The notes: generated by a model not told the origin, from the letters alone. DNA of 64,000 nt from Strigamia acuminata (GCA_949358305.1 OX442314.1:4774001-4838000); one strand, 5' to 3'. Shown: positions 1-63,383, numbered from the stretch's first letter. Program-made: numbers and translations.

Positions 1-66
1 TTTTCATTTTTTCTCCTAACCAAACTAGAAAAGTTTAATCAAATGAGGAAAAAATTATATTTCCAG

Positions 67-4234: not shown

Positions 4235-6530
4235 CGGGACTCTAATTCAAACATCACAACCCTCAACATCACTGCTATTTCAACCAGACAAGTATTGACG
4301 GAGGACCGTGATTTGAACTTAGTTTCACCTTGCTATCTTTGTGCACCAAAGCACAAAGCCAGCTATTTGCGTGGATCAACCACTGTTGATTCCCGCAACG
4401 TAAGAAGAAGTTCCCGCGATCGTCGTGAACCATCGCCGAGACGAGTGCGCGAACACCCGCCGAAGCCATCGTACGCTGACCGGACGCCTGTAACCGTGAA
4501 CCACCGCCGCCGAGCCGTCGTACGAGTTACGAAAGGACCCACGAGAACCATCGTCGTCAGGACCATCGTTCGTGAGTCGTTTAACGAAGGAAACCTCCTT
4601 CGTAACAGCATTCGTGTTGTAAAGCGCCATTTCTGACGCTTTTGGCTTGCAACTGTCGGTCTTTTTATTCTCTCTCTCATAAATTAACCCTAGATAATTT
4701 TAAGGCCGCGATATAAGTCTTTTTAAGTATTCAACTGCGGTTTCTACTTATTTTACTAGAATTTAAGTAGATAAAAACCCGGATCGCAGCAAAAATTATG
4801 GGGGAAATTTAAGTGATCACAACAAAACGCCTGCATTTAATTTACAGTCAAGTTTACTCCCTTTATTGCACTCTTGCAGATCCTCTTTTATTATCATCCT
4901 TCTTACTGTGTGGGATCTCCTGAAAATTACATAAACCAATCAGGGTGCTCACGTTGTTTCTCCCTACGCTTTTTTCGCATCCAAAAACTTTTTGGTTATT
5001 TCGATTATTTTTTTTTCTCAACAAAACCGACCACCCCCCCCCCCCCCCAAATTTTGATATCAACAAATTCAGTAATTTTCAATTTCAATTTTCAAATTTA
5101 CAATTTACAATACAAAATAATAATGAATTGAAGCAATGTTACGACAAACACCGGGCACCAGGTCGCCATGGCACTTAAAAATTCTTGTCTGGCATATAGA
5201 TTTTAAAAAATTCAAAATCAAATGGATGCTTTAGGCACCTGAAAACAAATAAATATAAAAAACTACATTTTTGGAAAAAGGCTTTTATTTTAGAACTTCA
5301 AAATATTGTCAACCCCTGGAGCTAAACATTGGAAGATCACCATCCTCTGACAATTAGGATCACAAGGGAAGGGGCAACAAGCAGCTGACCATGGTGCTTA
5401 AATGTGTTAGAAGGGTCCTGGTAATACCTCGCTTTAAGCGGCATGCCAGTACAGCACAAGTCCAACCAGACTGGAGGTAAATCGTGTTATATCGGCAGGT
5501 TGTTATAAATGAGTACAAAATTTGTTTCAACGTAAAATGAACCAAAAAGCATTTTTAGATGTTCAAAATATAAGAAATTGGTCTAAATTTCTATGAATTT
5601 ACAGAAATTTTAAAAATAACATTAAGATTATCTAGAAAACTCAAATTTCTGGCCCAAATTCCAACATAATTATTCATCCAGACGTTTTTTAATTATTTTT
5701 TTTTCTAAAAAAAAGCTTTTTCACTTATACTTAAGTCAAGGATTTGTAAAAAAAAAAATGTTTTAATAATGTACCACATTTTCCTAATTCTTAACACAAC
5801 AATAAAATAAAATTTACAAACGTGATTGTTCATTTTCAAAACCCCGATAACAAACAAAAGAAAACCCGCAAAAAAATGCCATGTTGGGAAAAATTGAGAT
5901 ATTATTTAGGGTACCCAAATTAAAACAAGCGTATTTACTTACGCCATGGCGAAAATTCAAAAAATGCACTTTTCGCCAACACTTCTGCGGTTGGTACGTC
6001 GTGGAAAAGATCTCCGACGAGTCGTATCGTGTTCTAAGTCGGTGCTTCATTCATCAATACATTCGTCGAAAAAACAAACGGCAAAAATAAACAACGCATT
6101 ATTTTCCAGGTAAACATGGTCTAGTCTGCTGGTTAAATTCGTCCTAGAGTCTACATCGATGCTGTGATTGGTCGACGGGTGCTCCATTGCATTTTGGGAG
6201 CTCCATACACAAAAATTTACAAAAAATTCAACTTTAGGCCAAAAAAATTCATTTTAGCCAAAATAATTAATCTTTTATCGAATAAAACAAAAAATGTTTA
6301 AAAAAAGCTGGTATAAATCGAGTTACCAACACTATAGAAGAGGTATGAATTTCTCATGTTTCTAGGAATTTAGCGATAAAAGATGACATCATTCCGTTTT
6401 TCCCGCGCTGATTCCCGATTGGTCGGTATACAGCCCAGCACGGTGAAAATTGCGCGCAAACTTTAACCAACAACTACCAGACAAGGCGGGTGTCCAGATC
6501 CGCTCATTTCACCCAAAGAAAACCAAACTA

Positions 6531-9500
6531 ATGGACACTTTAACTTATTTCGAGAACAGGAAGATCGGTTGCCTCGATTCCGGCCTATGGAGGCGCAAAT
6601 CGGCGAACAACGGTAAAAACAACACCACAAAACGCAAAATTCCCACGAAAACTCAACCCGATCTCCATTACAGGTTACGGCAAACTCAACGTCAACTTTT
6701 TACTCTCAAAATTGCGATGCAATTGGGAGGACGATCATCTAACGATAGGAATTCGCAGCGCACTCACCACCGACGACCAACTGGAGGACTACGAGTACCC
6801 GGTGCCCGCATTCGCCGCCAAATTTTGTCAAAGTACACACAAATTTCATTCAATTTCAAGTTTTCAACCGAAAATAATTCAATAATTATTTTATTTCACC
6901 TTCTAGTTGCCGGCAACGAACATTTTCTAGCAGTTTGTACCGAAGAAGGCACCGTGAACATCCTAAACACGAATTTCCACGGCGACTCCACTTACATTTC
7001 GAGTATAAATCGAAAAGAAATTCAAAAATTGATGATTTTAATCGATTTTTTCGGTTTATTCTTTAATCTAGGTGTGCAGGCGCATCAGAATGCAATTTTC
7101 GACGTTTGTTGGGTGCCGGGAGAGTCGAATATCTTGACCGTGAGCGGGGATTTGACCGCGGCCATTTGGGACGTCGAGCAGGAAAAGAGGATAGCGACGT
7201 TTTCTGGTCATAATGGGAGCATCAAATGGGCAGATTTTAGACCGATGGATAAAAGTGGGTGTTGGATTTAATTTTTGATTAGTTAAATGTGGAAATTTAA
7301 TTTTTTTTAAATGTTTTTTAAGGTGTTTTTGCGACGGCGGCGAGAGATGGGTCCGTTATTGTTTGGGACGTGCGGAGACAGGCGGCTGATAATGTGATTA
7401 AGAATTGTCACGCGATTTCTAAGGTTTGTTCGAGGAGGAATAAGTCGCCCGAGATGCCGGCGAGGGACGGGAAGCAGAGCGTCACGGCGGTTTTGTTTCA
7501 AGACGAGCATACGCTGGTGTCGGCGGGATCGTCCGACGGGTGCGTAGAGTTTGAATTTTGTCAAATTTATTTGAATTTTCTACAAATTCACTAAGAAAAA
7601 ATTAAATTTGTTTGGATTCCGTCGAAATTCACAAAAAAAAAATTAAATTTGTTTAATTTCCGTCAAAATTCACTAAAAAAAAATAAATTTGTTTGAATTC
7701 CGTCGAAATTCACTAAAAATAAATTAAATTTGTTTGAATTCCATAGAAATTTACTAAAGAAAATTAAATTTGTTTGAATTCTGTCGAAATTCACCAAATA
7801 AATTAAATTTGCTTGAATTCCGTCGAAATTCACTAAAAAAAAAAATTAAATTTGTTTGAATTCCGTCGAAATTCACTAAAAAAAAATTAAATTTGTTTGA
7901 ATTCCGTCGAAATTCACTAAAAAAAATTAAATTTGTTTGAATTCCGTCGAAATACACGAAGCAATTTGTCGAATTTCTTTGAATTTCGTCCAAAATCCCA
8001 ATTTTTATAATTTTATAATTAATTTTCCTTTTTTTTCTACAGTAAAATCAAAGTATGGGACATAAGAAAACACTACAGTAATCACACGCAGTTGCCTCTC
8101 GCCAAGCACACGATTTCCAAAAAGAATTCGAAAACAGGTAAATTTAAATATTTCAACACTGCGAATAATACAAAATTTAATTCAATTTAATTTTTACTGT
8201 TTAGTTGGATATTCGAGCTTGGTATTCGATTCGAGACGTCGCCATTTGTTTGCCAGCGGCTGCGACAACGTGATATACGAGTACAACTGTTGGACGTATT
8301 CGTCGGTGCCCGTGAGCACGTTCACGGGTCATCAGAACCGGACATTTTTTGTGAAAAGTGCCATTAGCCCCGACGATCAGTATTTATTGAGCGGCTCCAG
8401 CGATAATTTTGCGTACATTTGGGCGGTAAATTGTTTTTAAAAAGCTTTTTATATTTATTTAATTATTAAATAAATTTTTCTTTGAAAATTAGATCTCGCA
8501 GCCAGGAGAACCGATATTTAAGTTGGAGGGCCACGAAGCCGAAGTGACGGCTGTAGCGTGGTCCATGGACCCAGTTCCGAGGGTAAAATATTGAATATTT
8601 TAGTGGTGCCATTATTTATTCAAATATTGGATATTCTTGCGTAAATTTTATCGAAATTAACCGAAAAGTTGTCAAATTTGTTTAAATTTTGTCGAAATTG
8701 ACTAAAATTTGTTTAAATTTACGCGAAATTGACTAAAATTTGTTTGAATTTAGTCGAAATTGACTAAAATTTGTTTAAATTTAGGCGAAATTGACTAAAA
8801 TATGAGTAAATTTTTCGATATTCACCGGAAAATTGTCGATTTTGTCGAAACTTACCAAAAATTTGACTAATTTTGTCGAAATTTGAGCAAATTTTGTTGA
8901 ATTTACTAAAAATTTGACAAATATGAGTAAATTTTGTCGTAATTCAGCGGATAATTGTCGATTTTGTCGAAACTTACCAAAAATTTAACTAATTTTGTCG
9001 AAATTTATCACAAATTTACGCAAATACATGGAAATTTATCGTTTTCATTTTCCAGATTGCAACATGCGCCGACGACATGCGCATGAAACTCTGGAATTCG
9101 TGGCCCGACGGCGTCACCATATCAACCGAGCGCCCATCGATGGGCCGCGTCATGAAAACCCCAAAATCCGAATCAGTGACTCACATGCAGACCCCTTGCA
9201 GACCCCTCAAACCTCGCCGCCTCAACCTCGACTCCCCAGCCAACACAACAGCCAACACAACGCCCAACAAACGAGCCAAACGACGAATCCACCAGGAAAA
9301 CGAACACGCGAGCCCGAGGAAAAAGAAGTGTTCGCCGTCCAAAGCGATTCTGTCGCCGCGCAAAATGGCCGCGTCCAACGAAGAAAACGTGCTCAGCAAA
9401 TTAACTTTCGACGGCCGCAAATTGACATTCGACGACTGCCTAAGTCCGGCCAAGTGCGGAATGCGATGGGGCTCGCCCACGTACAACTTGCCCAATTCGA

Positions 9501-9820
9501 TCGAGAGCCCCATCCCCATCTCGCCCATCGTCAGGCCTAAAACGCCCAAATGCAATTGGTTGACGCAAATGGCGCAGGAAAAAGTGCAACTAACACCCAA
9601 ACCAAACACGAGCGCAAAGAAAAAGACGAATATCAGGAGGAAATTGAACCGTTCGTCGCCCAGAAATGGCAAAGTAAAATAAATTAATTTATTAATTGTT
9701 TATTATTTTTTTAAATTGATTTATTTTATTTTTTCTTAGTCACAAAGTTCTGCTGGTAATTCGCAATCCATTCTCCATTATTTCACTTGTCCGCCGTTGA
9801 CGTCGAATTCGACGAATTGA
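6531..9820 (+). CDS. DTL: Denticleless/Cdt2 WD40 substrate receptor of the CRL4 ubiquitin ligase
   Basis: 10 GT-AG exons: 6531-6612, 6674-6832, 6907-7002, 7072-7254, 7323-7539, 8043-8137, 8205-8425, 8493-8582, 9056-9673, 9740-9820. Motifs PVPAFAAKF, EHFLAVCTEEGTV, AHQNAIFDVCW, KIKVWDIRK, FFVKSAISPDDQYLLSGSSD; S/TP-rich tail with NWL motif; C-terminal PIP-like SQSILHYF. Confidence 0.93.
7560..7990. repeat. Intronic tandem array, about 40-bp unit (aaattaaatttgtttgaattccgtcgaaattcactaaaaa)
   Basis: About 9 visible copies in DTL intron 5. Confidence 0.9.
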
Positions 9821-11034: not shown

Positions 11035-14000
11035 ATGACCGCTGGTAAGACGAATAAAGGGCCCATGGCTGGCTACCAGGACAAAGATAAACCGGCTCAG
11101 ATTAGGAACAGTAACATCACCGCCGCAAAAGGTAACGCGCATGAAAATGAAGAAAATCGAGAATTGTAATGGAAAAATGAATTATTTCAGCCGTTGCGGA
11201 TGCTATTCGAACGAGTTTGGGACCCAGAGGAATGGACAAAATGGTACTCGCAAAAGTTCTTTGTTTAAATTGCTTAGTGATTGAATTTGTTTCAGATTCA
11301 AGCCGCGAATGGCGATGTGACCATTACCAATGATGGGGCGACAATTCTGAAGCAAATGCAAGTGATTCATCCCGCTGCTAAAATGGTATAAGTTGAAAGA
11401 AAAATATAAGGAGTCGAAGAATTGGATTTTTTGGTTTGAAAGAGGAAAAATCGAATTTTGTTGGTGCTAAAAGTGGAATAGATGGTTTTAAATATGAAAA
11501 ATAAAGGATTTTTTGATTAAATAATTAAGAAATTAGAGAAAAATGAATTTTTTGATGAGAAAAATTGAAAAAACTGAAAAATTTGATCAAAATAATCAAG
11601 AAATTTAGGAAAACTTTAAAATTTTGTTTAAGAAATCAAAAAAGATACCGAAATTGTTATTTATAAATCAGGAAAACTAAAATTTTGTCTACAAAATGGG
11701 GGGAAAAGTTGAATTTTCGATTAAAATCAAGAAAACAAAGTTTTGACTAAAAATTGAATTTTTAATTCAAATAGTCAAGGAGATTGTGAAAACCTGAAAA
11801 TTTTGTTTAAAAACTAAAATTTATGATTTTAAAAACGGGAAAAAAAAGAATTTTGATTAAAAAAATTAGGAAAACTTGAATTTCTCTAAAAAAAAATACT
11901 AAAAAATTGAATTTTTCGATTAAAGCAAAAAAAAACTGAAAGTTAGTTCACAAAATTGATTTCTTGATTTAAAAATCAAAAAACTGAATTTTTTTATTTA
12001 AAAATCCAAAGGAATTGAAATTCTTGATTTAAAATTCCAAAAAACTGAATTTTTTGATTTAAAAAACCAGAAAAATTGAATTTCTTGATTTAAAAATACA
12101 AAAGAACTGAATTTCTTGATTTAAAAATCCAAAAAACTGAAATTCTTCACTTTTTAACTGCAATTGACACCAATCTCTTTCTCCAATTCCAGTTAGTTGA
12201 ATTATCGAAAGCTCAGGACGTCGAGGCCGGCGACGGAACCACGACCGTAGTAGTCATCGCTGGAAGTCTGCTCGACTCCACCCAGAAATTACTCGCCAGA
12301 GGAATCCACCCGACGACCATTTCCGACGCATTCCAACGCGCTGCGACGAAATCTGCAGAAATCCTCTCCAATTTGGCGACCCCGGTCGACCTGGCTGACC
12401 GAGAAGCGCTTTTAAAAAGCGCCTCGACCGCCCTCAACTCAAAGGTGAAAGAAAAACGACGAAAAATCGTATTTTTTCGAATTTTTTTCATATTTTTCTT
12501 ATTTAATTCGACAGGTGGTTTCTCAACATTCGACTCAACTTGCGCCGATCGCCGTTGAAGCCGTTTTGAGAGTCATCGACCCATTAAAGGACACTAATGT
12601 CGATTTGAGGGACATCAAAGTGATTAGGAAATTGGGGTATGGCGAGAAAAAATGATGAAAAAGTGGATAGAATTGTTTGAATATATTTATTTATATTTTT
12701 GTTTGCAGTGGGACTGTGGATGACACGGAATTAATCGAAGGATTAGTGTTTACGCAGCGAACTGGGGGCTCGGGAGGCCCCACGCGCATGGAGAAGGCGA
12801 AAATAGGACTGATTCAGTTTTGTTTGTCTCCGCCGAAAACTGATGTAATTATTTGTTTTTAACGAAATTAATTCCATTTTGTTAAAAAAAAAATTGTTTT
12901 TGTGATTTTTCAAACGAAAAGCGAATTTTTTTCATGTTTTTGTTGATTTTTCAAACGAAAAGTAAATTTTTTTCACGTTTTTGTTGATTTTTCAAACGAA
13001 AAGTGAATTTTTTCACGTTTTTGTTGATTTCTCAAACGAAAAGTGAATTTTTTTTACGTTTTCGTTGATTTTTCCAACGAAAAACGAATTTTCTTCACGT
13101 TTTTGTTGATTTTTCAAACGAAAAGCGAATTTTCTTCACGTTTTTGTTAATTTTTCAAACGAAAAGCGAATTTTTTTCACGTTTTTGTTGATTTTTCGAA
13201 TACAAAGCGAATTTTTCTCACGTTTTTGTTGATTTTTCGAACGAAAAGTTGAATTTTTTTCACGTTTTTGTTGATTTTTCAAACAAAAAGTGAATTTTTT
13301 TCACGTTTTTGTTGATTTTTCGAACGAAAAGCGAATTTTTCTCACGTTTCAATACACAAATAATGAATTTCCTCGAATTTTTTTGACCGATAACTTCTAA
13401 TTCCATCCATTTCTAACCATTTTTCAGATGGAAAACAACGTGATAGTGTCGGATTACTCGCAAATGGATCGCGTTTTACGCGAAGAACGTGTTTACATTC
13501 TAAACCTCGTCAAACAGATCAAAAAAGCCGGCTGCAACGTTCTCCTCATCCAAAAATCGATTCTCAGGTACTTAAACTAAACTAAACAAACCAAAACAAA
13601 TAAAATTAAAACAAATTCAACTCTGTAGAGACGCAGTCAACGATTTGGCGCTTCACTTTCTGGCCAAAATGAAGATCATGATAATCAAAGACATCGAGCG
13701 AGAAGATATCGAATTCATCAGCAAAAGCTTGGGGTGTCGTCCTGTGGCTAGCATCGACCACTTCACGCCCGAGACGTTGGGCTCGGCCGACCTGATCGAG
13801 GAGATCGGCGGAAATGGCAGCAAGATGGTCAAGGTGAGTGAATCGTTTGAAATTTGAACGATTGTGATGAGAAGTGATCAGTTATGAAATATTCTTTTGA
13901 TTTCATTTTGTTTTCTCCACTTCATCTGATTTTGTTTGGTTTTTTTTCTGGCTTTTGGTTGAGGTTTGGGTTTTGGGTGATTTTGTTTGATTGTTTTTGT

Positions 14001-15184
14001 TTGGTTTTGTTTTAGGTTACTGGAGTGCAGAATGCGGGCAAGACTGTTACGATTCTTATTCGTGGATCGAATAAGTTGGTTTTGGAGGAGGCCGAGAGGT
14101 CGCTGCATGACGCTTTGTGTGTTATTCGTTGTTTGGTTAAGAAGAGGTTTGTTGAGCTTTTTTTTGTTTTGAAAATTTTGGGAGTTTTGTTGGAAATTTG
14201 AAAAATTGTTGGGGAGTTTTGTAGTTTTGCGAATTTTTACTGAAAATTTTTGTGAAATTTTACCATTTATTAATTCATTTTTCTGAAATTTTACCGTTTT
14301 CAATTGATTTTGGCGAAATTTTACCATTTTTCAATTGATTTCGGTGAAATTTTACCATTTTTCAGTTTTTTTCGGTGAAATTTCATCATTTTTCAATTGA
14401 TTTTGGTGAAATTTTACCATTTTTTAATTGATTTTGGTGAAATTTTACCATTTTTCAGTTGATTTCGGTGAAATTTTACCATTTTTTAATTGATTTTGGT
14501 GAAATTTTACCATTTTTCAATTGATTTCGGTGAAATTTTACCATTTTTCAATTGATTTTGGTGGAATTTTACTATTTTTCAATTGTTGAAATTTTACTAT
14601 TTTTTATTGAAATTTTGGACAATTTCACAATTTTTCGTTAAAATTTTGTCGCAATTTTACAATTTTTCGTTAAAATTTTGGACAATTTCACAAATTTTCG
14701 TTAAAATTTTGGACAATTTCACAGATTTTCGTTAATTTTGGACCATTTCACAATTTCTCGTTCAGATTTTCTCGAACTTCTCCTTGCAATCTAAACATTT
14801 GAATAAATCTTTTGCAGGGCTTTAATCGCCGGAGGTGGAGCGCCCGAAATCGAACTCTCCCTTCGCCTGACGGAATTCTCGCAGACGTTGACCGGAATGG
14901 AAGCCTACTGCTTCCGATCGTTCGCCGACGCCCTCGAAGTGATCCCTTCGACCCTGGCCGAAAACGCCGGCCTCAACCCCATCGCCACCGTCACCGAGCT
15001 GCGCAACCGCCACGCGCACGGCGAATTCACGGCCGGCATCAACGTGCGCAAGGGCGCCATCACCAACATCCTCGAGGAGAACGTGGTGCAGCCGCTGCTC
15101 GTCTCACTCAGCGCCGTCCAGCTCGCCACCGAGACCGTGCGCTGCATCTTGAAAATCGACGACATCGTCAACGCACTTCGCTGA
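11035..15184 (+). CDS. CCT4: T-complex protein 1 subunit delta (chaperonin CCT4)
   Basis: 10 exons: 11035-11131, 11191-11243, 11296-11385, 12193-12444, 12515-12636, 12709-12844, 13428-13567, 13629-13833, 14016-14146, 14818-15184. N-terminus [46 protein letters not shown] motif, [16 protein letters not shown]-terminus [12 protein letters not shown] are delta-subunit signatures. Confidence 0.97.
12895..13350. repeat. Intronic tandem array, about 40-bp unit (tttttgttgatttttcaaacgaaaagcgaatttttttcacg)
   Basis: About 11 copies in CCT4 intron 6. Confidence 0.9.
14250..14760. repeat. Intronic tandem arrays, about 30-bp units (gattttggtgaaattttaccattttttcaatt, then aaaattttggacaatttcacaatttttcgtt)
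   Basis: CCT4 intron 9. Confidence 0.88.
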
Positions 15185-15421
15185 AAATTCATTTCCTTTC
15201 TATTTCTGTTAATTGTTCGCCTTTTCTTACTTGAATATTAAATAAAACGACTGTAGTGGCGCTTGCTAATAAAGATAATCAATAAACAGTGTTCTCTGTA
15301 TTTTATTTATCGTATTTGTTCACTCAAAGCTGGATTTTTTGGCCAAATATTGAGTGGTTTGTTTAAAATTTACGTTTTTGCCACATCAACTAGTGGCGCC
15401 GTATGGCGGTATTCCCTTTTA

Positions 15422-16815: not shown

Positions 16816-19800
16816 ATGGCCGACGATCTCTGTACGCTAAGTATCTCAATATCTAGTCAAAATATATTTCAAAATTTAATTCATTTCCGCTTGAAATCGA
16901 TAACTCAAAAAGCAACCTCGTTTTTAATCCAACACACTTATTTACCATAAAATTCATTACTAAAATTTAATTCTTTTTATACATTTATTAAATTTCCGTT
17001 TTTACCTCCAATCAATCCATACCTAACCCAAACCGTATTTCATCTTCTCAACCTCGAACTTCGCGACACCTCGCGACAAAACCAATAACGAATCTAACCA
17101 AAGACCAAACCTCGTGATGTACCGCTCTCCGTCTAGTTAAAAATCCAAAATGGCACCAATCGAGCAAATATGTTATCAAATTCCCATCTAATTTCCCCAA
17201 TTTTTCTCCTTTTTAACCCAAATTTCAGCTAACGAAGTAATAGTTCCGCTTCTCGGTATGTCCGCCGAAGCCCAGGTAACCGGTAACGTGGCCAGCAATC
17301 GCTTAACGGGTCGGAAAAAGCGCTACAACGTCAACAGGAACTTGCAGGTGATGCGATAAATGGAGAAAAACGTGAAAAATTGAATGAAATTTACCGAAAT
17401 TTAAATATTTGTAGGACGTGGAGCCGAACGGAGACTTGGATGCCGAGGTTACGAGTAATAACGTGCGAAACGAGACGAATTCGGGCCCGGAATGGGCGGC
17501 GGAAGAGGAGGAGGAGCTGAAATACGGAGCGAAACATGTCATCAAGCTGTTCGTTCCGGTCACGTTGTGCATGTTGGTGGTCGTGGCCACGATCAGTTCG
17601 GTCACGTTTTATACTCAGAGGGGCAGTTACTTGTAATTAACGTGTTGGAGTGTCTGGGTGAGCACCGAAAATCCGAAAAATGGAGAAAATAAAATCGAAA
17701 ACATCGAAAAATAACAGAAATAATACAAAATAATGAATTTACGTCGTTTATTCGACCGTTCGAAGGTTAAAAATCGCGTTATTTCTGATTTTTAATGGAA
17801 ATTAATCGGTTTTTCGCCCAAAATCGAAAAAAAAATAATTTTAAAATTCTAAAAATTAAATTTAAAAAATTCTAAAATAATAGAAATAACAAAAATAACG
17901 AATAAATGCAAATTCACGTTGATCTTTTACAGTTTGAACGTTAAAAATCGCGTTATTTCTGCATTTAAAATGGAAATTCATCGATTTTTCGCCCGAAATC
18001 GGACAAAATCGACGGATATTTGTACAAAATTCGATTACCCGGATAGACGGTGTTGAAACCCTGCGATCTGGTTATTTTAGAGTTTGAGAATTTCGAGATT
18101 TTAATTTTTATCGTTTTATTATTTGTAGAGTTTACACACCGTTCCATGAAAACAGTCCAGATCCGGGCACCAAAGCGTGGCAGTCGATCGCCAATGCTTT
18201 TATATTGATGGGGGTCATCGTTGTAATGACCATCTTTCTTATATTGTTGTATAAATATAAGTGTTACAAGGTTTTTGTGCTTTTTTTGGTCATTTTTTTG
18301 TGGTTTTTGTTGATTTTTTTGTTTTTTTTTAGGTGATTCATGGCTGGCTGATATTGTCGTCGCTTATGCTGTTGTTTCTGTTTGCGTATATTTACTTAGG
18401 GTGAGGAATTTCAGTGGAATTTGATCGATTTTGAATTTATTTTATTTTGTTTTCATTTTGTATCAATTTTTTTCACTTTTTTAATTTAATTTTTAATTTT
18501 TTTCTGTTTTTTTCCAATTTTTTCTGGTTTTTCCAGTTAATTTTCAATTAATTCTCCACTTTTTTTTATCTTTATTTTGATTATTTTGATTATTTTCAAT
18601 TTTATTTTCTTTTTCTCACTTTTTCTGTTTTTACCAATTGATTTTCAATTAATTTTCCACTTTTTTCCATTTTTTCTGGTTTTTTTAATTGATTTTCAAT
18701 TAATTTTCCACTTTTTCATCTTTATTTTGATTATTTTCAATTTTATTTATTTATTTTTTCACTTTTTTTCAGTTTTCTCTTAATATTTTTCTATTTCTTT
18801 TATTTTTTTTTTATTTTTATTTAATTTTTGTTTTCAATTTTTGCTCATTTTTAATTTTTTTTCGGTTTGTTGCAGGGAAGTGCTTCGTGCCTACAACGTT
18901 CCAATGGATTACATCACCCTGGTGTTCATAATGTGGAATTTTGGAGTGGTGGGAATGATTTGCATCCATTGGAAAGGCCCGCTCCTCCTCCAACAAGCCT
19001 ATTTAATCGTCGTTGCCGCCTTGATGGCTTTAGTATTTATCAAATATTTACCCGATTGGACCACGTGGGTCGTCCTAGGTGTCATTTCCATTTGGGGTAA
19101 ATTTTTAACAACAACAATTTAACATTATAAATTTTAATTCAAAAAATTGAATTTTTTTAATTTTATTTCAAAAAATTTTCAATTTTTTAAATTTTATTTC
19201 AAAAAATAAAAAATTTTCGGATTTAATTAAAAAAAATTAATTTTTTCGATTTTAATTCAAAAAATTGATTTTGTTCGATTTTAATTCAAAAAATTCAATT
19301 CTTTTCGATTTTAATTCAAAAAATTGATTTTGTTCGATTTTAATTCAAAAAATTGAATTTTTTCAATTTTATTTCAAAAAATTCAATTTATTTTTTTTAA
19401 TTTTTTCGATTTTATTTCAAAAAATTGAATTTTTTTTCAATTCTTTGCAGATTTAATTGCTGTGTTGTGTCCAAAAGGTCCTTTGAGGATACTGGTGGAA
19501 ACAGCTCAGGAACGCAACGAACCAATTTTCCCAGCTTTAATTTACAGTTGTACGTTGGAAATATATACATACCTACACAATGTCAAAAAAAAGATTTTAT
19601 TTAAAAAATTAATTTTTGCTTTTTTGTTGTTTCTAGCCACTGTGGTGTACAGTATGATGGCGGACAGAGAAACAGGAGTCGAAGAACGATCCAATACAGC
19701 AAATCATACCGGTCAAGGTATTTGGTCTAAAACAAACATATTTTCCGTATTCGCATTTGGGATTTAAAATTGCAATTTTACACTTCACATGCAATTTCAC

Positions 19801-20927
19801 ATATGAAAACGCAATTTTACACGCACATATTTATCCTTGAAAGACAATTTTACAAATAAATAATGCATTTTTTCTATCCTAAAATGCATTTTTTCATCCT
19901 AAAATGCATTTTTTTAAATCTTAAAATGCATTTTTTCGTCCTAAAATGCATTTTTTTAAATCTTAAAATGCATTTTTTCGTCCTAAAATGCATTTTTTTA
20001 AATCTTAAAATGCATTTTTTCGTCCTAAAATGCATTTTTTCATCCCTAAATGCATTTTTTTTTATCCTAAAATGCATATTTTCCATCCTAAAATGCATTT
20101 TTTCATCCAAAAATTCATTTTTTTTCATCCTAAAATGCATTTTTTCATCCTAAAATGCATTTTTTCATCCTAAAATGCATTTTTTTAAATCTTAAAATGC
20201 ATTTTTTCGTCCTAAAATGCATTTTTTTAAATCTTAAAATGCATTTTTTCGTCCTAAAATGCATTTTTTTAAATCTTAAAATGCATTTTTTCGTCCTAAA
20301 ATGCATTTTTTCATCCCTAAATGCATTTTTTTTTATCCTAAAATGCATATTTTCCATCCTAAAATGCATTTTTTCATCCAAAAATTCATTTTTTTTCATC
20401 CTAAAATGCATTTTTTTTTATCCTAAAATGCATTTTTTCATCCTAAAATGCATTTTTTCATCCTAAAATGCATTTTTTTCCATCTTAAAATGCACTTTTT
20501 CCGTCTAAAAATTGACTTTTTCCGTCTAAAAATGCACTTTTTCATGTTACAATGTACATTTCTGCAGGTAAAGAACATTTTTAGCTCAGAAAATGCAGTT
20601 TTTAGTCACAAGAACCATTTTATTCACCATCTTAAAAGTTATTTTTTCCTCTTAAAAACGCACTTTATGGCAATTATTATTACACAAAAATTGCACTTTT
20701 TGATCTCAAAATCCATTCTTCACCATTTTCACAGCAGGAAACGCAACTCCCGAAGATCAAGAAGCAGGCTTCTCACGCGAATGGCTCGTGCGTCGAGGTA
20801 CCGGAGCCAATCAAACAAGAATCGACGAGAACGGTCGAAGATCTCAACGCCGCTCGATGCCGAACGGCGATCCGGTCACTAATCAGGACGAAGAGGAAGA
20901 ACGTAAATTTCTCCATTGGAGTGCAAA

Positions 20928-20959
<32 letters not shown>

Positions 20960-21354
20960 GTTGGTGGTGGCGCCCTCTTGCGGCGTTACTCATTTTTTTT
21001 TTTTTTTCAAATTTTGTCACTAGGTGGAGTGAAGTTAGGTCTTGGGGATTTCATTTTCTACAGCGTATTGGTTGGAAAAGCGTCATCTTACGGTGATTGG
21101 AACACGACTCTAGCTTGCTTCGTCGCCATTTTGATAGTAAATTATAAAAAATTTTATTTTAAATAATGTTAAATTAATTTAAAAATAATTTTTTTTAGGG
21201 TTTATGTTTAACTCTGCTTTTGTTAGCCATTTTTCAAAAGGCTTTGCCGGCTCTGCCCATATCGATAACATTCGGGCTTATATTCTATTTCCTCACTAAG
21301 GAAATAGTTCAGCCGTTTGCCGACAGTCTCGCGAGCGAACAAGTTTACATTTGA
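16816..21354 (+). CDS. PSEN: Presenilin (gamma-secretase catalytic subunit)
   Basis: Exons 16816-16831 (tentative start), 17229-17347, 17415-17632, 18129-18270, 18333-18400, 18876-19096, 19451-19549, 19637-19717, 20735-20902, 21024-21136, 21199-21354. [20 protein letters not shown], catalytic ISIWDL and [35 protein letters not shown], ends EQVYI*. Confidence 0.97.
19860..20540. repeat. Intronic tandem array, 20-21-bp unit with ATGCAT core; contains a 271-bp higher-order duplication
   Basis: cctaaaatgcattttttcat repeats; ORFs 19874-20140 and 20145-20411 translate identically. Confidence 0.92.
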
Positions 21355-24300
21355 AAAATCATTGAGTTTTTTTTTCATTTTTCTTCATTTGATTTTATTT
21401 TAAAATCCTCATAATATGTTTTATTGTACGTGAATAAATGTGTTTCTAATTTAAATAATAAAACTGTAACAACATCAAGTGAATAAAACGATAAAATCGC
21501 TCTTTTTTGATACGAAAAACGTCCATTTTGGTTAAACCGCGACACCCGGTGATGAATTATCGCAATTTCAAAAAACGACAAAAATTAAAAATAACCAAAA
21601 TAAATTTCGAATAACTCATTAAAAATCGTTTATTTGTGTTTGAAATAATTGCAAACACCGTAAAACCGTTTTTTGAATATAAATTTTCCATTCGAGACGG
21701 AAGCGCCGTAAAATGCGAGTGATTTAAAACCCGTTGCCGGCTGAATCGGGTAATTAAACGAATCATCCGAGATCCTAATTCGCACATTATCTGTTAATGT
21801 GATTGCTAATTGCACAATTAAGATTCTCCTAACAAGACAGGAGGTGTGCAGTGCAGTCTTAATTTAATTAACTTGTTTCTCGATCAACAAAACTTGATAA
21901 CGCGCCGCGAAAAAACGAAAGAAAAATTCCCATTCAATAAATGACGTCATTCCAATACTCTCAACCCCATCCCCTGAGAGCAAACACAAACAAAACAACA
22001 ACACTAAACAGCTAATTTTACATCGATTACATGAAATTTCTAAATAAATTTTAATAATTAATAATAATAATAAATTTAATTATAAAAAAAAAAATTTCTA
22101 GCCTCGTTTCCACACTCGATGCACTCGTCAACGAAGAAATTAAAATGGCGTGCGCCACCGATCTAAATAATTCAAATCGTAATAGTCACGATATGATGCA
22201 ACTATGATGTCATAATTAATAAACCAAGGGTGCCCGAACCATCTAAATTTATTCCATCTAAATTAAAGTAATTATCTCGACCCACTTTGTCCCAGAAATA
22301 GAAAAAAGGAACCCCCTTTACACGAGATTACGTCATAAGGCGCTTACGGTACGAGAGTGAGTGCGCATGGGCACACACAGAGCTCGCGTCAATCGGATTG
22401 CGCACCATAGACAATAGAAATGGGGAGAGATTCTCTTCACCCCTAGTGGAGATGTTTGGAAACAAATTCATTTCGAGAAAGGGTTAACCGAAAATTGATT
22501 CAAATCCTTTCGAGGGGTGGAATTAATGGCGGAAGGGGGGTTAAACGCCATGTTTGACTGTGTTTCGGGGCTCGTGGGACCTGTCAGGGGTCACGTGCGT
22601 CGAGGGCCATAACGTAAACGTATGGCGCGCCACTTGCTTCCATTACGCGCTAATTACATCAGTAGGCCGTGTTAGACAATGGCGGTGCGCATGCGCGCTG
22701 TTGCAGCAGGTAGGATGTAAATCAGATGGATGGAAATGGGTTGGCTTTGTGTAGAGATGTCCCATCGCGCTAATTTGCGAATTAAATACTAGCGGGAGAA
22801 CGGAACCCACTTGGGATCGGGTAGTGATGGATGAGGGGTTTGTGGGTCGTTTTGAAACACTTTGTTTGGAGTGAGGTGGAATGATGATTTATGGTTTATC
22901 GTGTGGAGGGGAATTCGATTAAGGGGAATTAGGAATTGAGTGGTAATCGGCGAGTTTGGTTTGCAAATTGATTGAATTTTTATTCGATTTTCGGTTTTTT
23001 TTTTTTTTTTTAAATCGATTTTTTTTTCTTGGCGATTGTTTTATTCGGTTTGGTGTGTTTTGGTGTGTTTTGTGGTTGAAAAAATCGATTATTTTATTCG
23101 ATTTGGGGTGTTATGAGGTTTTTTTTATTTTTAAATCGATTAATTTAATCGATTTCGTGATTTCTGAAGACATGTTTTTGGGAAAATCGATTATTTTAGT
23201 CGATTTTGTGTCTAAAAAATGTATTTTTTGAAAAAATATTGATGATTTTAGTCGATTTTGAGTCACAAACCACATGTTTTTGAAAAAATCGAATACTTTA
23301 GTCGATTTAGTGTCACAAACCACATTTTGTTGAAAAAAATCGAATACTTTTACAAATCGAATACGTTAGTCGATTTCGTGTCACAAAAACACATTTTATG
23401 TTAAAGAAAATCGATTTTTTTTTTCTTCCATTTCGTCTCACGATAAGCAGTATTTAATAAAATCGAATATTTTCTTCGATATTATCTCCAATTCAAATGG
23501 TTTATTAAATATCGACTGATTTCACAGATAAAAAGCCCAAAAAAATCGATTTTACCTTTTCAGTTAGAAATTTTGAAAAACATTGATATTTTAATTCGAT
23601 TTTATCAAAACAAACAAAAAAAATTCAAACACATCGAATTCATTTAATCGATTTAAAATAAAAGACCCAAAATAGGCCTATGTTCGGTTGCACGAAAACA
23701 AAAAACCCCTACCGTCGATTTTCGCCAAATTAAACACAAGCAAGTTCCGCCTCGCAATAATTCCTCATTTTCCTATTACCCGATGAAATTAAGAAAAATC
23801 GCATCATCGCAACCCCCATAAATCCGCACACCCGACTGAAGTTAAGGTCCCCGTGTCAAGCGCTTTGAGTTAGCGGATAAAACGCGTCAATTATGCACGT
23901 CCAAATTAAATCTAAATCTCCACCAAATGAGATTACATCATCCCCGTTTCCCCCCGCACTCCACGACCCCCACCCTTCCCTTCCCCCTAAAACATCCCAA
24001 ACATTTTATTCCTCCGTTATTCGCCGAAAACACCATCACATTTTCCAATTTGCCAAACAAACTTCGCTTTATTTCGCCACAATTATCCGCAAAAAGCCGT
24101 TCCACGTTTTAATTACGTCATTTTTGGGCCCGGTCTTTAGTTTCGCAATCGGTCGTGGCATTAATGCGCCCATTTGCGAGTCTTTGATGACCCGAGTAAC
24201 TTCCTTCTTTATGTTCCGAATTATCGACCCCGAACCGGAGTTGATTTTCTTATAAAGAAGAAAACAAACTCGTTAAGAGACCCCTCCACATCCGCACTCT

Positions 24301-25329: not shown

Positions 25330-25930
25330 GGTTGAAAAAAATCAAAAAAAAATCCAAATTTTTAATTTTAGACTGGAAAAAATCCAAATCTTCAATTTTA
25401 GACTAAAAAAATCAAAATTTTCTATTTTATACTGAAAGAAAAATCCAAAATTTGAATTTTAGACCAAAGAAAATCTCAATTTTCAATTTTACGCCAAAAA
25501 AATCCAAATTTTGAATCTTATTCTGAAAAAAATCCAAATTTTGAATTTCACACTGAATAAATTAAAATTTTGAATTTTAGACTGAAAAAAAATTCAAATC
25601 TTCAATTTTAGACTGAAAAAAATTCAAAATTTTAATTTTAGACTGAAAAAACTTCAAATTTTTAATTTTAGACCCAAAAAAATCCACATTTTCAATTTTG
25701 GACTGAAAGAAACATCCAAATTTTGTATTTCAGACCGAAAAAAAATCAAAATTTTGAATTTTAGACAGAAAAATGTCCAAAATGTTAATTTTAGACTGAA
25801 AAAGTTTTTTAAATTTTGATTTTAGACCCATAAAACCTAAATTTTCAATTTTAGACTGAAAAAAAGCCCAAATTTTCAATTTTAGACTGAAAAAAAAGCC
25901 CAAATTTTCAATTTTAGACCGAAAATTTCA
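25330..25930. repeat. Tandem array, about 31-bp unit (aaaaaatccaaattttcaattttagactga)
   Basis: About 18 degenerate copies downstream of the Vsx 3' end. Confidence 0.85.
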
Positions 25931-26248: not shown

Positions 26249-59394
<33,146 letters not shown>

Positions 59395-59677
59395 TGTGTA
59401 AGCGGGCGAATTTACACCGCCCATTAGGAGGAGCCCCATCGCCCAATAACGAAAGGCCGACAGCCAATGATTGACGTACATGTGACTGCAGCGAATGGCT
59501 GGGGCGAGTCGGGGGCGCATGCGCGCGGGGTTTCCGGTTGGAGTCGAGGGTTGTGTGGACTCGTTCGTGAGGTTTGCTCTTGAGATTTTGAGGGGATTTG
59601 GGACGGGGGAGCGGCGGGAGAGGAGGCGTGGGTGGCGGCGTGGGTGGTTGGGGGTTCCGGCGGAGGGGTTGCGGACA

Positions 59678-59711
<34 letters not shown>

Positions 59712-60639
59712 GTTTTTTTTTGGGGTTTTTTTTTGGGGGTTGGGAATGGTTTTTGTTTTGGTCGATGTTTTGGTCATTTGTTGGTTGGGGGATTGTTGGT
59801 CAGCGGGATGTTTGGGTTGCTATGGCGATTGGATGCTGCGGATCAAATTTCCGACACTTAGCGCCGACTAGTGAGGGTTTTTTTAAGATATTTAAATTTG
59901 GAAATAAGTGTTTTTGTTGTAATTTTTTTTAAATTAAATTTTAGACTGGACTGGAAAAATGTTGGAAGAAATTTTAATTCGTCTGAAAAAAGTGTTGAAA
60001 ACTATTATAGACCGGTCTAAAAAAAATCTACAATATTTTTTTTTTCTTTCGCTTTTGTTTTCTAGAAATTTTTTTTTTCTTTTTGGATTTCTTTAATTTA
60101 AAGGTCTGAAATTTTAGACTTCTGAGGATTTTTTTTTCGTAATTTTTATTTTATGCAAAAAAAAATAGAAAATTAAATTTTTTTTTTTTTTTTAAAAGAA
60201 AACCTAAAATTTTTTTTTTTTTAGACCCTGTCTAAATAACTTAGCAAAAATTTTAGACTGGTCTGAAAAGAATTGCAAATTTTTTTCATTTTTCACATTT
60301 CCTCAATTTTATATTTTACCAAAAAAATAAATAAATAAATAAAAATAAAATTTTCGATCTAAAAATTTTAGACCTGTCTAAAAAAAAATAACAACACCCA
60401 AACCAAAGAAAAATTTCTAATTTCCTTTTCCACAAAAAAAATATCAAAATACATTTTCCAAAAATCAAAACTTTGGGTCTAAAATTTTTAGACCTGTCTA
60501 AAAAAAAACAACAACACCCAAACCAAAAAAAAATTCCAAATTTCCTTTCCACAAAAAAAAAAACATCAAAAAAAATTTCCAAAAACCAAAATTTTGGGTC
60601 TAAAAATTCTAGACCGCCTAAAAAAACCCAAAAAATCCC

Positions 60640-61320: not shown

Positions 61321-61654
61321 CACTTTGACTTTGAGTTTTTGGATTTTGGTTTTTTTTTTCTTTTTTGGTTTTTTGGTTTTTTTGGATTTTGGTTTTATTT
61401 TATTTTTTTGGTTTTTTGGTTTTTTGGGATTTTGTTTTTATTTTTTTTTTTGGTTTTTTGGTTTTTTGGGATTTTGGTTTTTTTTTTGGATTTTTTGGAT
61501 TTTGGTTTTTTGGATTTTAGTTTTTTTTTTTTTTTGGATATTTTGGATTTTGGTTTTTTTTACTCGGATTTTTTTGATTTTGGTTTTATTTTTAGATGGG
61601 TCTAAAATTAGTAAAATGTTGGGGGGATTGGTTGTTTTTTTTTATTTTTGTTGG

Positions 61655-62215
61655 ATTTTTGGTCTAAAATGTTTGGAAAACTTTTTTCCAAACATTTTAA
61701 ACTTAAAATCTGAAAGAAAAAACGTTTTTTCTTCACATTTTAGGTCTAAAATGTGTCTAAAAACGTTTTTTCTTTCGGATTTTAAGTTTAAAATGTTTGG
61801 AAAACGTTTTTCTTCATATTTTAGATCTAAAACGTTGGGGAAAACGTTCTTCTTCACATTTTAGGTCTAAAATGTGTCCAAAAACGTTTTTTCTTCACAT
61901 TTTAGGTCTAAAATGTGTCTAAAAACGTTTTTTCTTTCGGATTTTAAGTTTAAAATGTTTGGAAAACGTTTTTCTTCATATTTTAGATCTAAAACGTTGG
62001 GGAAAACGTTCTTCTTCACATTTTAGGTCTAAAATGTGTCCAAAAACGTTTTTTCTTTCTGATTTTAAGTATAAAATGTGTCTAAAAACATTTTTTTTTC
62101 AAATTTTAAGTCTAAAATATTTAGAAAACGTTTTTCTTCATATTTTTCACATTTTAGGTCTAAAATATATCTAAAAACGTTTTTTCTTTCAGATTTTAAC
62201 TCTAAAATGTTTTCT
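61655..62215. repeat. Degenerate tandem array (tctaaaatgt...aaaacgtttttcttcacattttagg)
   Basis: Directly visible upstream of Vsx. Confidence 0.85.
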
Positions 62216-63383
62216 TCTTTTGCTACTAGGTTTAAATTGAGGAATAAATGTCAAACTAAAAATAATTTTACAAATTTTAGGCTTAAAAAAATTTCCCACT
62301 TATAATTTCAGGCTTGAAGTCTAAAATTTTATCTAAACAAGTAAACTTTCTGTTTTTTTTCCGCATTTTCAATCTCCATTCACAAAACACCATCAAACAG
62401 AAACCACAATATTTTTATTACTATTTCTCCCACCAGACCCAAAATGGCCGCCACAAAAACACAAAAAAATCACACAAAACAAACTCCAAATTACCCTTGA
62501 AACCCCCAAAAATCCCACCAAAAAACGACCAAAATAAAAAAAAACACAAACACATTTTCAATTAAAACAATTTTTTAATTTTTTTAAATTTAAAAAAAAT
62601 TGCATCGATTCGAAAAAATGGCCGCAGCCCATAAATCCGTTAATGAAATTTTCAGCGTGCACAGCCAGTCAGTTGAGTCGGTATTTAAATTCTGCACCGT
62701 CGTTGCTGGCGATGCAATCTGCATTGATTTACACGCATTTCAATTGGGAGGCATTTGTTTATTTGAGCGTCGGTTTAATTCGCTCGATTTGATTAGAAGA
62801 GGGCGCTGACAAATGAATTCGAACGAGTAATGGCGGATTTATTAAAACTCGCATCTCGGGAGACGACGAGTTATGGAAACATAAATCCCCATCCACGCAC
62901 CCACACACACTCGACGAACCCTCATAACGAACCAACGTTCCATTCACGTCTCCACAGATGTCGCTCAACTCGCATCAACTTCCTAATTGAACGAAACGAC
63001 CAAGATCCCGCCCGGGTGTCAACAAAACGCGTTTTGCAACCTTTAAAACTCGTTTTACATTGTACCACTCACGCAAAAAAATTATTTTATGTTGTTATAT
63101 ATATTTTTTTTATTTGTCACATTTGTAATAATGAGGTAGAGTTGGATTAATTATCAACATTTCGCTGCTTATGTGAGCATGAAAACGCGCGTGCGCCGTG
63201 TGGTCGAGGCAGCTGGTGGAAAAGGCGAATAAATCATGGTAATTTTAATATGTTTGAAATGCTCTGCGGATTGACGAGATGTGCGAAATTATTCTTTCAA
63301 ACATGAAAGAACATCAACATTTTAAACTATAGAACCATAAAAAATGTTTTAAAAAATATGAAAAAATGACATTTGTCCGTCGT

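What the first reader, a model, noticed from the sequence alone, without database searches (positions are those of the whole stretch)
6500..62600. Repeating strand-composition polarity centred on the AT-rich arrays
Seen: on the + strand, DNA approaching an array is G/T-rich and DNA leaving it is A/C-rich, e.g. 22800-23120 vs 23600-24050; 34450-34740 vs 35300-35520; 47700-48060 vs 48830-49420; 57550-58050 vs 58580-58800; 59560-59830 vs 60380-60640; 61330-61660 vs 62370-62560. The polarity is the same in + strand genes and in the - strand Vsx gene, so it is not host-gene transcription skew. It reaches short introns and coding exons: CCT4 intron 13568-13628 is A/C-rich, while intron 13834-14015 and exon 14016-14146 are G/T-rich. 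Established: single-stranded DNA accumulates C>T and A>G changes, and break resection exposes the + strand left of a break and the - strand right of it. Inference: the arrays may be recurrent break/recombination sites; alternatively the intervening islands act as bidirectional origins or promoters, or the arms are selected for loose fold-back pairing.
Basis: partly seen in the sequence, partly recalled or inferred. Interest (0 to 1): 0.75.

Follow-up and report, generated by a model that had tools for sequence, protein, structure and literature searches.

The report
Mirror strand skew around centipede minisatellites
In this centipede's DNA, most short AT-rich repeat arrays have G/T-rich sequence on their left and A/C-rich sequence on their right, even at silent codon positions, likely because the arrays are long-lived germline break-and-repair sites where the strand pointing into the array is repeatedly shifted from A to G and from C to T.

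Summary
The window is from a Strigamia-type centipede (CCT4 518/530 identical to S. maritima). In 27 of 31 tandem arrays the left flank is richer in G+T than the right (mean difference 0.31; circular-shift null 0±0.05). The polarity reaches fourfold-degenerate sites in + strand genes and in the − strand Vsx-like gene, and arrays outside gene models show it too. It is anchored on the arrays: it fades 500-750 bp from their edges and fits better than island-centred or gap-scaled models. Homologous repeat units diverge directionally, mainly by transitions (A>G and C>T on the inward strand). The arrays are PATC-like (10.3-bp phased A/T tracts). Sequence-specific fold-back was not found. The best reading is recurrent germline breaks or recombination repair at the arrays, as at human hotspots but far stronger. 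At human error rates per break, mutation alone needs implausibly many breaks, so biased conversion or stalled replication forks probably contribute. No break, origin or chromatin data could be tested, and this is one 64-kb window.

The parts
6500..62600 (.). Domain of alternating skew: 20 downward switches (median spacing 2.6 kb) mostly at arrays, 21 upward switches in GC/CpG-rich islands
7563..7957 (.). 41-bp array, intron of WD40 (DTL-like) gene; flank keto L +0.24 / R -0.01
8674..9017 (.). 31-bp array, DTL-like intron; L +0.10 / R -0.28 (right flank is coding exon 9056-9673)
11952..12147 (.). 31-bp array, CCT4 intron; not polar in keto (L -0.14 / R -0.10)
12896..13349 (.). 41-bp array, CCT4 intron; L +0.10 / R -0.14
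14246..14774 (.). 31-bp arrays, last CCT4 intron; L +0.46 / R -0.14; fourfold sites G/T-ending before, C-ending after
18477..18818 (.). 51-bp T-rich array, presenilin intron; L +0.35 / R +0.12
19131..19394 (.). 29-bp array, presenilin intron; L +0.23 / R +0.04
19862..20545 (.). Homogeneous 20/42-bp array (halves 99% alike), presenilin intron; almost no polarity (+0.08)
23133..23352 (.). 50-bp array outside gene models; L +0.43 / R -0.14
25345..25925 (.). 30-bp array outside gene models; L -0.13 / R -0.38
26844..27814 (.). 30/31-bp array, Vsx intron; strong internal gradient (G|A 27 vs A|G 0; T|C 21 vs C|T 5)
28832..29909 (.). GGGCCC-rich array, Vsx intron; L +0.20 / R -0.41
31237..31878 (.). 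50-bp and 31-bp arrays; L +0.50 / R -0.11; left flank 31063-31230 reads as degenerate units with A-runs turned to G-runs
34855..35219 (.). 21-bp array; L +0.43 / R -0.40; left flank present in independent run X3
36253..36811 (.). 20-bp array; weak polarity (+0.14)
38193..38907 (.). 20/21-bp array; L +0.38 / R -0.05
40911..41213 (.). 15/109-bp array, with related repeats from about 40350; switch at 40791
42381..43331 (.). 40-bp array with strong internal gradient (T|C 30 vs C|T 1)
45225..46012 (.). 25/27-bp array with internal gradient; L +0.26 / R -0.05
46665..47165 (.). 80/213-bp repeat (halves 95% alike); reversed flank polarity (-0.23)
48112..49279 (.). 22-bp array plus A-rich derivative on its right; strongest polarity (L +0.47 / R -0.40)
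50267..51187 (.). 20/21/31-bp arrays; L +0.34 / R -0.07
51802..52230 (.). 21-bp array; no polarity (-0.12)
54887..55693 (.). 30-bp array; no or reversed flank polarity (-0.17)
57850..58601 (.). 130-145-bp units with strong internal gradient (G|A 18 vs 4; T|C 17 vs 1)
60341..60626 (.). 120-bp repeat, right part of the AT-rich tract 59880-60630; switch at about 60177
61336..62211 (.). G/T-rich degenerate repeats plus 41-bp array outside gene models; L +0.17 / R -0.28
6531..9820 (+). WD40 gene (10 exons, 613 aa); the name DTL/Cdt2-like is my recall, not tested by ortholog search; GC4 0.71
11035..15184 (+). CCT4 (10 exons, 530 aa); GC4 0.69
16816..21354 (+). Presenilin (11 exons, 469 aa); intron 21137-21198 spliced in a contig of run X4; GC4 0.59
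26249..59394 (-).

Best explanation
The AT-rich, 10-bp-phased minisatellite arrays are likely long-lived germline break-and-repair (recombination) sites, and repeated repair there has likely shifted the strand that runs 5'->3' into each array from A to G and from C to T over about 500-750 bp, which leaves G/T on the left and A/C on the right. Shown: the polarity, its anchoring on array edges, its short fixed range, its presence at fourfold sites and outside genes, the 10.3-bp phasing, and the directional divergence of homologous units. Inferred: the arrays are nucleosome-poor (by analogy with C. elegans PATCs); breaks form there; 5'->3' resection leaves the inward strand single-stranded on each side; deamination and error-prone fill-in change it; biased repair of heteroduplexes helps fix the changes and raises GC in neighbouring exons and islands. 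New units appear to be added inside the array, so that older units at the edges carry the most change.
For: Array-edge model with a 400-bp Gaussian range gives log-likelihood gain 326, against 221 for a gap-scaled sawtooth and at most 143 for island-centred models; it wins 500 of 500 block bootstraps against each. In the 5 gaps over 2.5 kb the folded skew is 0.14, 0.09, 0.03, -0.05 in successive 250-bp bins. Fourfold sites within 600 bp: G+T 0.63 left vs 0.42 right, p=4e-8; + genes p=2e-6; Vsx p=0.008. Left-half vs right-half alignments of 27 arrays: G|A 176 vs 78, T|C 193 vs 83; 18 arrays vs 6 for transitions, p=0.023. With amplified copies collapsed: A>G 41 vs 27, C>T 19 vs 9, no transversion bias. 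Flank polarity rises with array divergence measured without forward changes (rho 0.42, p=0.03). GC4 is 0.59-0.83 in the four array-bearing genes and 0.25-0.27 in two ENaC-like frames of the array-free first 4 kb. Human hotspots show strand-asymmetric C>N and A>N changes in 2-kb flanks, off-centre peaks at 700-800 bp, and insertion bias in tandem repeats (PMC7615360).
Against: No direct break data. With human per-break substitution rates (2-6.6e-4) and an assumed background of 1e-9 to 1e-8, doubling the strand-specific rate at 27 arrays per 64 kb needs 8-253 breaks per Mb per meiosis; humans have about 441-620 per meiosis genome-wide. The C>G signature of human off-centre peaks is absent in the collapsed count (6 vs 9). 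Within-array tests are weak per array: 17 vs 13 and 9 vs 5, neither significant; the single-class tests are p=0.10 and 0.06. Best TRF percent match does not predict polarity (rho 0.05). Differences to run X3 are no denser in one flank (10 in 380 bp) than on a nearby unskewed contig (14 in 362 bp; p=0.41). The GC4 contrast rests on one array-free gene region. Stalled forks predict the same polarity and range.
Confidence: 0.4

Rival explanations
1. The arrays are replication-fork barriers. A fork arriving from the left leaves the + strand single-stranded as lagging template; one from the right leaves the − strand exposed. Deamination and collapse repair give the same polarity, in every germline division, and slippage keeps the arrays growing.
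For: Same sign and a fixed short range; transitions dominate; many more opportunities per generation than meiosis, which eases the rate problem; arrays hold phased A/T tracts and many imperfect inverted repeats. The lagging-template logic is my own knowledge.
Against: Does not by itself explain GC4 of 0.59-0.83 near arrays against 0.26 away. Six-mer palindromes are no commoner in arrays than in their shuffles (0.028 vs 0.030). My search for a published local skew at stalled-fork repeats listed 7 papers, none on this by title or abstract start.
Confidence: 0.25
2. The arrays are efficient replication origins and the leading strand becomes A/C-rich, as in budding yeasts, or origin firing leaves a local strand-biased footprint.
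For: Leading strand enriched in A and C in S. cerevisiae and K. lactis gives this sign at an origin (PMC3459929). Human constitutive origins have strand-biased mutagenesis that inverts at the origin within about 4 kb (PMC9645720). G-quadruplex motifs mostly point from islands toward arrays.
Against: Yeast origin jumps are about 9% and decay over about 20 kb to the inter-origin midpoint; here the GC-skew jump is about 0.7 and the range does not scale with gap size. It needs an origin every 2.6 kb. Human skew jumps at origins are upward, the opposite sign at arrays.
Confidence: 0.12
3. The GC/CpG-rich islands between arrays are bidirectional origins or promoters; the outward-running strand gains G and T, and arrays mark where opposing domains meet.
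For: Same polarity as A>G/T>C asymmetry around human CpG islands (PMC2817419). Upward switches lie in sequence of 47% GC against 37% for the window. An island term still adds to the joint model (310 vs 269).
Against: Island models fit much worse. Skew peaks near array edges, 300-500 bp from the downward switch. In humans the effect is about 9%, constant over hundreds of kb, and C>T is symmetric. The four gene starts show no consistent upward switch: one of three + genes does in GC skew.
Confidence: 0.08
4. Selection or remodeller preference: oriented T-tracts left and A-tracts right, with G/C caps, help clear nucleosomes over the array, as recalled for yeast promoters.
For: Runs are oriented: left T7+ 36, G5+ 25, A7+ 18, C5+ 5; right A 36, C 22, T 13, G 11. 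PATC introns are nucleosome-depleted barriers in C. elegans (10.64898/2026.08.08.743475). The yeast pattern is recalled, not looked up.
Against: Diffuse single-base bias at fourfold sites hundreds of bases away and unit-by-unit transitions look like a neutral process; weak selection on thousands of sites is hard to sustain.
Confidence: 0.07
5. The two arms are selected to fold back on each other, or are the inverted arms of foldback transposons.
For: DNA duplex energy of cognate flank pairs is slightly better than permuted pairs (-30.5 vs -27.6, p=0.036). One pair (34855) has the top alignment score of 27.
Against: Cognate vs non-cognate alignment p=0.11, mean rank 11.9 against 14 expected. 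The best alignments are gapped low-complexity G/T matches. None of the 25 longest of 181 inverted repeats brackets an array from flank to flank. Units run head to tail through the switch.
Confidence: 0.03

Closest known systems
Strand-asymmetric mutagenesis around human meiotic DSB hotspots (Hinch et al. 2023, PMC7615360; read abstract, sections 4 and 8, passages and figure legends; figures not seen)
   Same: Mirror asymmetry about a focal site; C and A are the mutated bases; off-centre maximum under 1 kb; tandem repeats biased to insertion. That C>N/A>N fall on the left of the forward strand I infer from the Fig. 1A legend on where ssDNA lies.
   Different: There it is seen only in pooled rare variants at PRDM9 sites; here single loci show a GC-skew jump of about 0.7 in the reference sequence, every 2.6 kb. 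The C>G signal is not seen here. No break map exists here.
Bidirectional asymmetry at human CpG islands (Polak and Arndt 2009, PMC2817419; read abstract and section 14)
   Same: Same sign: A>G excess to the right of an island, T>C to its left.
   Different: About 9%, constant over hundreds of kb, sharp at the island, C>T symmetric. Here it is strong, short-ranged and anchored on arrays.
C. elegans PATCs from Helitron minisatellites (bioRxiv 10.64898/2026.08.08.743475; read abstract and passages)
   Same: Intronic minisatellites with A/T tracts phased at the helical repeat; unit lengths near multiples of 10.3 (16 of 23).
   Different: The word 'skew' does not occur in its main text, nor 'centipede' or 'arthropod'. 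Helitron origin and nucleosome depletion were not tested here.
Replication skew jumps at yeast origins and the large local jump at Candida albicans centromeres (Marsolier-Kergoat 2012, PMC3459929; read abstract, passages and section 16)
   Same: Yeast origins have the same sign. The Candida centromere jump has a similar size (74%) and short range (about 3 kb) and is unexplained by replication.
   Different: Yeast origin jumps are 9% over 20 kb. Candida has one jump per chromosome, and by my inference from the text its sign is opposite.
Nucleotide skew changing polarity at mouse hotspot centres (Smagulova et al. 2011; recalled only, paper not held)
   Same: Composition skew that flips at break hotspots.
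   Different: Recalled as weak and seen in averages; its type and sign were not checked.

Membership tests
Meiotic DSB/recombination hotspot | SPO11 breaks or DMC1/RAD51-coated ssDNA mapped at the site | not testable with these tools
   No such data set reachable
Meiotic DSB/recombination hotspot | Mirror-asymmetric A>G and C>T changes on the 3'-ended strand | tested here: met
   weaker after collapsing copies
Meiotic DSB/recombination hotspot | C>G (translesion) asymmetry in off-centre peaks | tested here: inconclusive
   G|C 48 vs 27 in pooled halves but 6 vs 9 collapsed and 26 vs 33 against consensus
Meiotic DSB/recombination hotspot | Footprint limited to resection scale (1-2 kb) | tested here: met
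   Fades 500-750 bp from array edges irrespective of gap size
Meiotic DSB/recombination hotspot | GC-biased conversion signature | tested here: inconclusive
   GC4 0.59-0.83 vs 0.25-0.27, but only one array-free gene region and no polarised data
Meiotic DSB/recombination hotspot | Raised local diversity | tested here: inconclusive
   One flank 10 in 380 bp vs island 2 in 451 bp (p=0.016) but vs unskewed contig 14 in 362 bp (p=0.41); one haplotype pair
Replication-origin skew jump (yeast type) | Downward jump with A/C-rich leading strand | tested here: met
   Sign matches
Replication-origin skew jump (yeast type) | Skew decays to the inter-origin midpoint; amplitude about 9% | tested here: not met
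   Fixed range beats sawtooth; amplitude about 0.7
Replication-origin skew jump (yeast type) | Nascent strands or fork-direction switch at the site | not testable with these tools
   No OK-seq or SNS data
CpG-island bidirectional asymmetry (Polak and Arndt) | Asymmetry starts at the island and stays constant over long range | tested here: not met
PATC (periodic An/Tn clusters) | A/T tracts phased at about 10 bp over hundreds of bases | tested here: met
   AAA/TTT autocorrelation peaks 0.10 at lags 10-11, 20-21, 30-31, 41, troughs 0.03-0.04; 16 of 23 periods near 10.3n, p=1e-6. The published PATC score was not computed.
PATC (periodic An/Tn clusters) | Located in introns of germline-expressed genes | tested here: inconclusive
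   23 of 27 arrays lie in introns of my gene models; germline expression not testable
PATC (periodic An/Tn clusters) | Derived from Helitron minisatellites | not tested
   No repeat library or genome held
PATC (periodic An/Tn clusters) | Nucleosome-depleted, anti-silencing barrier | not testable with these tools
   Needs MNase/ATAC and transgene assays
Foldback element / terminal inverted arms | Sequence-specific inverted arms bracketing the array | tested here: not met

The most novel reading that the evidence does not exclude
A strand-specific form of biased gene conversion acts at array-centred, evolutionarily stable break sites: G and T alleles on the invading 3' strand (G.T wobble heteroduplexes) are kept more often than A and C alleles (A.C mismatches). 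This 'keto drive' beside ordinary GC bias would write a break map into the genome at kilobase resolution, recode synonymous sites, and explain the unusual high-CpG class reported for Strigamia. It needs a repair bias of only 0.0005-0.02 under assumed Ne and conversion rates. A hint: only 2 of 10 differences in one flank were transitions against 10 of 14 listed nearby (p=0.036), but 2 of 3 in a second flank were transitions.
Probability: 0.15. Interest if true: 0.88.

Novelty: new variant of a known kind. Interest (0 to 1): 0.66.

Why it matters
Mirror strand asymmetry is known around human hotspots, CpG islands and origins, but mostly as a weak signal in pooled data. Here it is strong enough to read at single loci, repeats every 2-3 kb, and overrides synonymous codon choice in housekeeping and homeobox genes. 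If the arrays are break sites, the reference sequence alone would map germline breaks in a myriapod, and PATC-like repeats would gain a role in where recombination starts. It may also explain the high-CpG genome fraction that the S. maritima genome paper called unusual among arthropods (PMC4244043). The rival causes make separable predictions (site-frequency spectrum, non-recombining regions, DMC1 against OK-seq), so a mutation-versus-conversion question becomes directly testable.

Tried and rejected
Whole-genome test: no genome is held, so everything rests on one 64-kb window. Unit-versus-TRF-consensus count: A>G 1.61 (p=0.001), C>T 1.29 (p=0.07), per-array sign 17 vs 13, not significant, because TRF splits graded arrays. 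Polarity against left/right identity (rho -0.74) is partly circular and was replaced. Unit-level alignment used 15 of 16 hand-anchored arrays and only units inside a length window, so some degenerate edge units were dropped. Fold-back, foldback-element and unit-orientation explanations were rejected; arrays with the shared TTTTAGR word in either orientation have the same flank polarity (9 of 9 positive). Amino-acid differences to S. maritima CCT4 (12 sites) were too few and mixed to use. Dispersed duplicates in the window gave no usable asymmetry. Read laying gave contigs only, unpolarised differences, and a list cut by 55 rows; X1 and X2 share alleles and may be the source sample, so they were not counted as independent; X3 did not cover 21500-22900. 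No RNA holder was listed. The gerbil 'GC skew' paper concerns GC content, not strand skew (PMC7403616, passages). Literature: 10 searches listed no report of this pattern in Strigamia or around arthropod minisatellites; most hits were seen only as listings, subscription papers are not searched, and the repeat analysis in the supplement (Text S1) of PMC4244043 was not read.

Full report
Setting. The last CCT4 exon is 99% identical to the Strigamia maritima protein T1JB12, ahead of other centipedes at 89-91%; the whole protein matches at 518 of 530 residues. The window is therefore from Strigamia or a very close relative and differs from the S. maritima reference protein. No whole genome is held. 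I built four gene models with GT-AG introns and no internal stops: a WD40 gene (DTL-like by recall) 6531-9820 (+), CCT4 11035-15184 (+), presenilin 16816-21354 (+) and a homeobox gene (Vsx-like) 59394-26249 (−). ENaC-like frames lie in the array-free first 4 kb.

The observation. TRF gives 31 array regions covering 15.9 kb. In 27 of 31 the left 300 bp are richer in G+T than the right; mean difference 0.313 against a circular-shift null of -0.003±0.052, maximum 0.119 in 5000 shifts. Switch points found without reference to arrays agree: 17 of 20 downward switches lie within 150 bp of an array, none of 21 upward switches lies inside one, and downward switches recur at a median 2.6 kb. Around downward switches GC skew reaches +0.46 at -500 bp and -0.32 at +500 bp, TA skew +0.26 and -0.25. 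A contig of run X3, from another study, spans 33989-34818 with 13 substitutions and 22 gap letters and keeps the G/T-rich flank. Four of 27 merged arrays lack or reverse the polarity.

It is made of single-base change, not only of low-complexity insertions. Fourfold sites within 600 bp of an array are 0.63 G+T on the left and 0.42 on the right (p=4e-8); + genes p=2e-6, Vsx p=0.008; codon positions 1 and 2 shift only from 0.52 to 0.48. Presenilin alone does not show it. Because the pattern is its own reverse complement, agreement between + and − genes does not exclude a transcription-linked cause. Better evidence is that both flanks are skewed about equally in Vsx (+0.19, -0.16; 15 arrays) and that 4 of 4 arrays outside gene models are polar; in + genes the upstream side is the larger (+0.16, -0.08).

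It is anchored on the arrays and short-ranged. Logistic fits on non-array bases give log-likelihood gains of 326 (Gaussian, 400 bp from array edge), 269 (exponential), 221 (sawtooth scaled to the gap) and at most 143 (centred on GC or CpG islands defined without skew); an island term still adds to a joint model. The array model wins 500 of 500 block bootstraps against each rival. Ranges were tuned on the same data for all models. In the five gaps over 2.5 kb the skew is gone by 500-750 bp.

Direction of change. Aligning left against right halves of 27 arrays gives G|A 176 vs A|G 78, T|C 193 vs C|T 83, G|C 48 vs 27, T|A 177 vs 106, and no bias for G|T or A|C; by array, transitions go 18 to 6 (p=0.023) and transversions 10 to 11. 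These counts are inflated by amplified copies. With each side-private allele counted once in 15 arrays, inward against outward counts are A>G 41:27, C>T 19:9, A>T 22:24, C>G 6:9, and arrays go 9 to 5, not significant. The robust part is thus transitions on the inward strand. Homogeneous arrays tend to lack polarity: flank polarity correlates with divergence measured from neutral and reverse mismatches (rho 0.42, p=0.03), though not with best TRF match. Several flanks read as decayed units, for example 31063-31230 and 48909-49279.

The arrays. Their A/T tracts are phased at about 10.3 bp, 16 of 23 basic periods lie near a multiple of 10.3 (p=1e-6), and 23 of 27 are intronic. This matches C. elegans PATCs, which a 2026 preprint traces to Helitron minisatellites and finds nucleosome-depleted; that text does not mention skew. 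Unit orientation does not set flank polarity. Fold-back is not sequence-specific: cognate flank alignments do not beat non-cognate ones (p=0.11), duplex energy does so only slightly (p=0.036), and the best matches are gapped G/T low-complexity.

GC context. GC4 is 0.59-0.83 in the four array-bearing genes and 0.25-0.27 in the two ENaC-like frames. Islands have 53% GC and CpG o/e 1.29 against 34% and 0.85 in the first 6 kb. The S. maritima genome paper reports an unusual high-CpG class of genes and windows (passages). This suggests a GC-raising force tied to the array domain, but rests on one control region.

Mechanism. Resection of a break in the array leaves the + strand single-stranded on the left and the − strand on the right. 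In humans the 2-kb flanks of hotspots carry asymmetric C>N and A>N changes with off-centre peaks at 700-800 bp, and tandem repeats in hotspots are biased to insertion. Sign, range, transition bias, array growth and high GC all fit. The main difficulty is rate: inward G/A is about 2.4 times background (from compositions), and at human error rates per break this needs 8-253 breaks per Mb per meiosis under assumed background rates. A fixation bias in heteroduplex repair needs only 0.0005-0.02 under assumed Ne of 1e5-4e5; these parameters are assumptions, not measurements. Stalled forks give the same sign and range with more opportunities per generation but do not explain GC4. Origins at arrays match in sign for yeasts but not in amplitude or scaling. 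Island-centred asymmetry matches the human CpG-island sign but not its range or anchor. I put recombination-type break repair at 0.40, fork stalling 0.25, origins 0.12, islands 0.08, chromatin selection 0.07, fold-back 0.03.

Polymorphism. Against X3, one G/T flank differs at 10 of 380 bp, the adjoining island at 2 of 451, and an unskewed contig at 14 of 362: islands look constrained and the flank is not clearly hypermutable. Transitions were 2 of 10 in that flank against 10 of 14 listed nearby, but 2 of 3 in a second flank; this is a hint at most.

Novelty. Ten literature searches listed no report of this pattern in Strigamia or around arthropod minisatellites; coverage is limited to open papers and supplements were not read. 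An earlier scan note on a microbial eukaryote describes a similar mirror skew at AT-rich introns; it is an unchecked lead. I file this as a new variant of a known kind, focal mirror strand asymmetry, unusual in strength, density and its anchor on PATC-like arrays. It works like a hotspot footprint; membership as a meiotic hotspot is untested.

Noticed in passing
window 43977-44190 and 63384-63477: Internal telomere-like TTAGG/TTTAGG tracts in opposite orientations. The 145 bp before the first (43811-43955) recurs at 53980-54115 (82%) without the tract, suggesting a mobile element that carries it.
   Followed up: partly
window 10141-10588 and 15422-15870: A 450-bp inverted duplicate (92.7%) brackets the whole CCT4 gene; 15217-15424 is also repeated directly at 16215-16445 (80%).
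   Followed up: partly
window 32600-33060 and 53545-53835: Very high-copy dispersed repeat (contig depth hundreds to thousands of times the unique level); two copies in the window are 94% alike.
   Followed up: partly
window 1-3800: ENaC/ASC-family coding frames (Pfam PF00858) with GC4 about 0.26, an abrupt contrast to 0.7 in the gene 3 kb away; may mark a compositional domain boundary near 6 kb.
   Followed up: partly
window 9056-9673: The WD40 gene's exon right of array 8674-9017 begins with A/C-rich codons (Pro, Gln, Thr, Asn, Lys), so the skew may shape the disordered protein tail.
   Followed up: no
window 16428 and 21438: Two downward switches of the keto walk without a TRF array, near the presenilin promoter region and 3' end; could be nucleosome-poor sites acting like arrays.
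   Followed up: no
window 33989-34440 and other Vsx intronic islands: GC/CpG-rich islands with low divergence to run X3 (2 in 451 bp) and facing C-rich/G-rich G-quadruplex motifs; possibly conserved enhancers of the homeobox gene.
   Followed up: partly
window 20572-20760: Runs X1 and X2 carry a second haplotype with 13 substitutions and 8 gap letters in about 190 bp just right of the young array 19862-20545, a dense cluster of differences beside an array.
   Followed up: no
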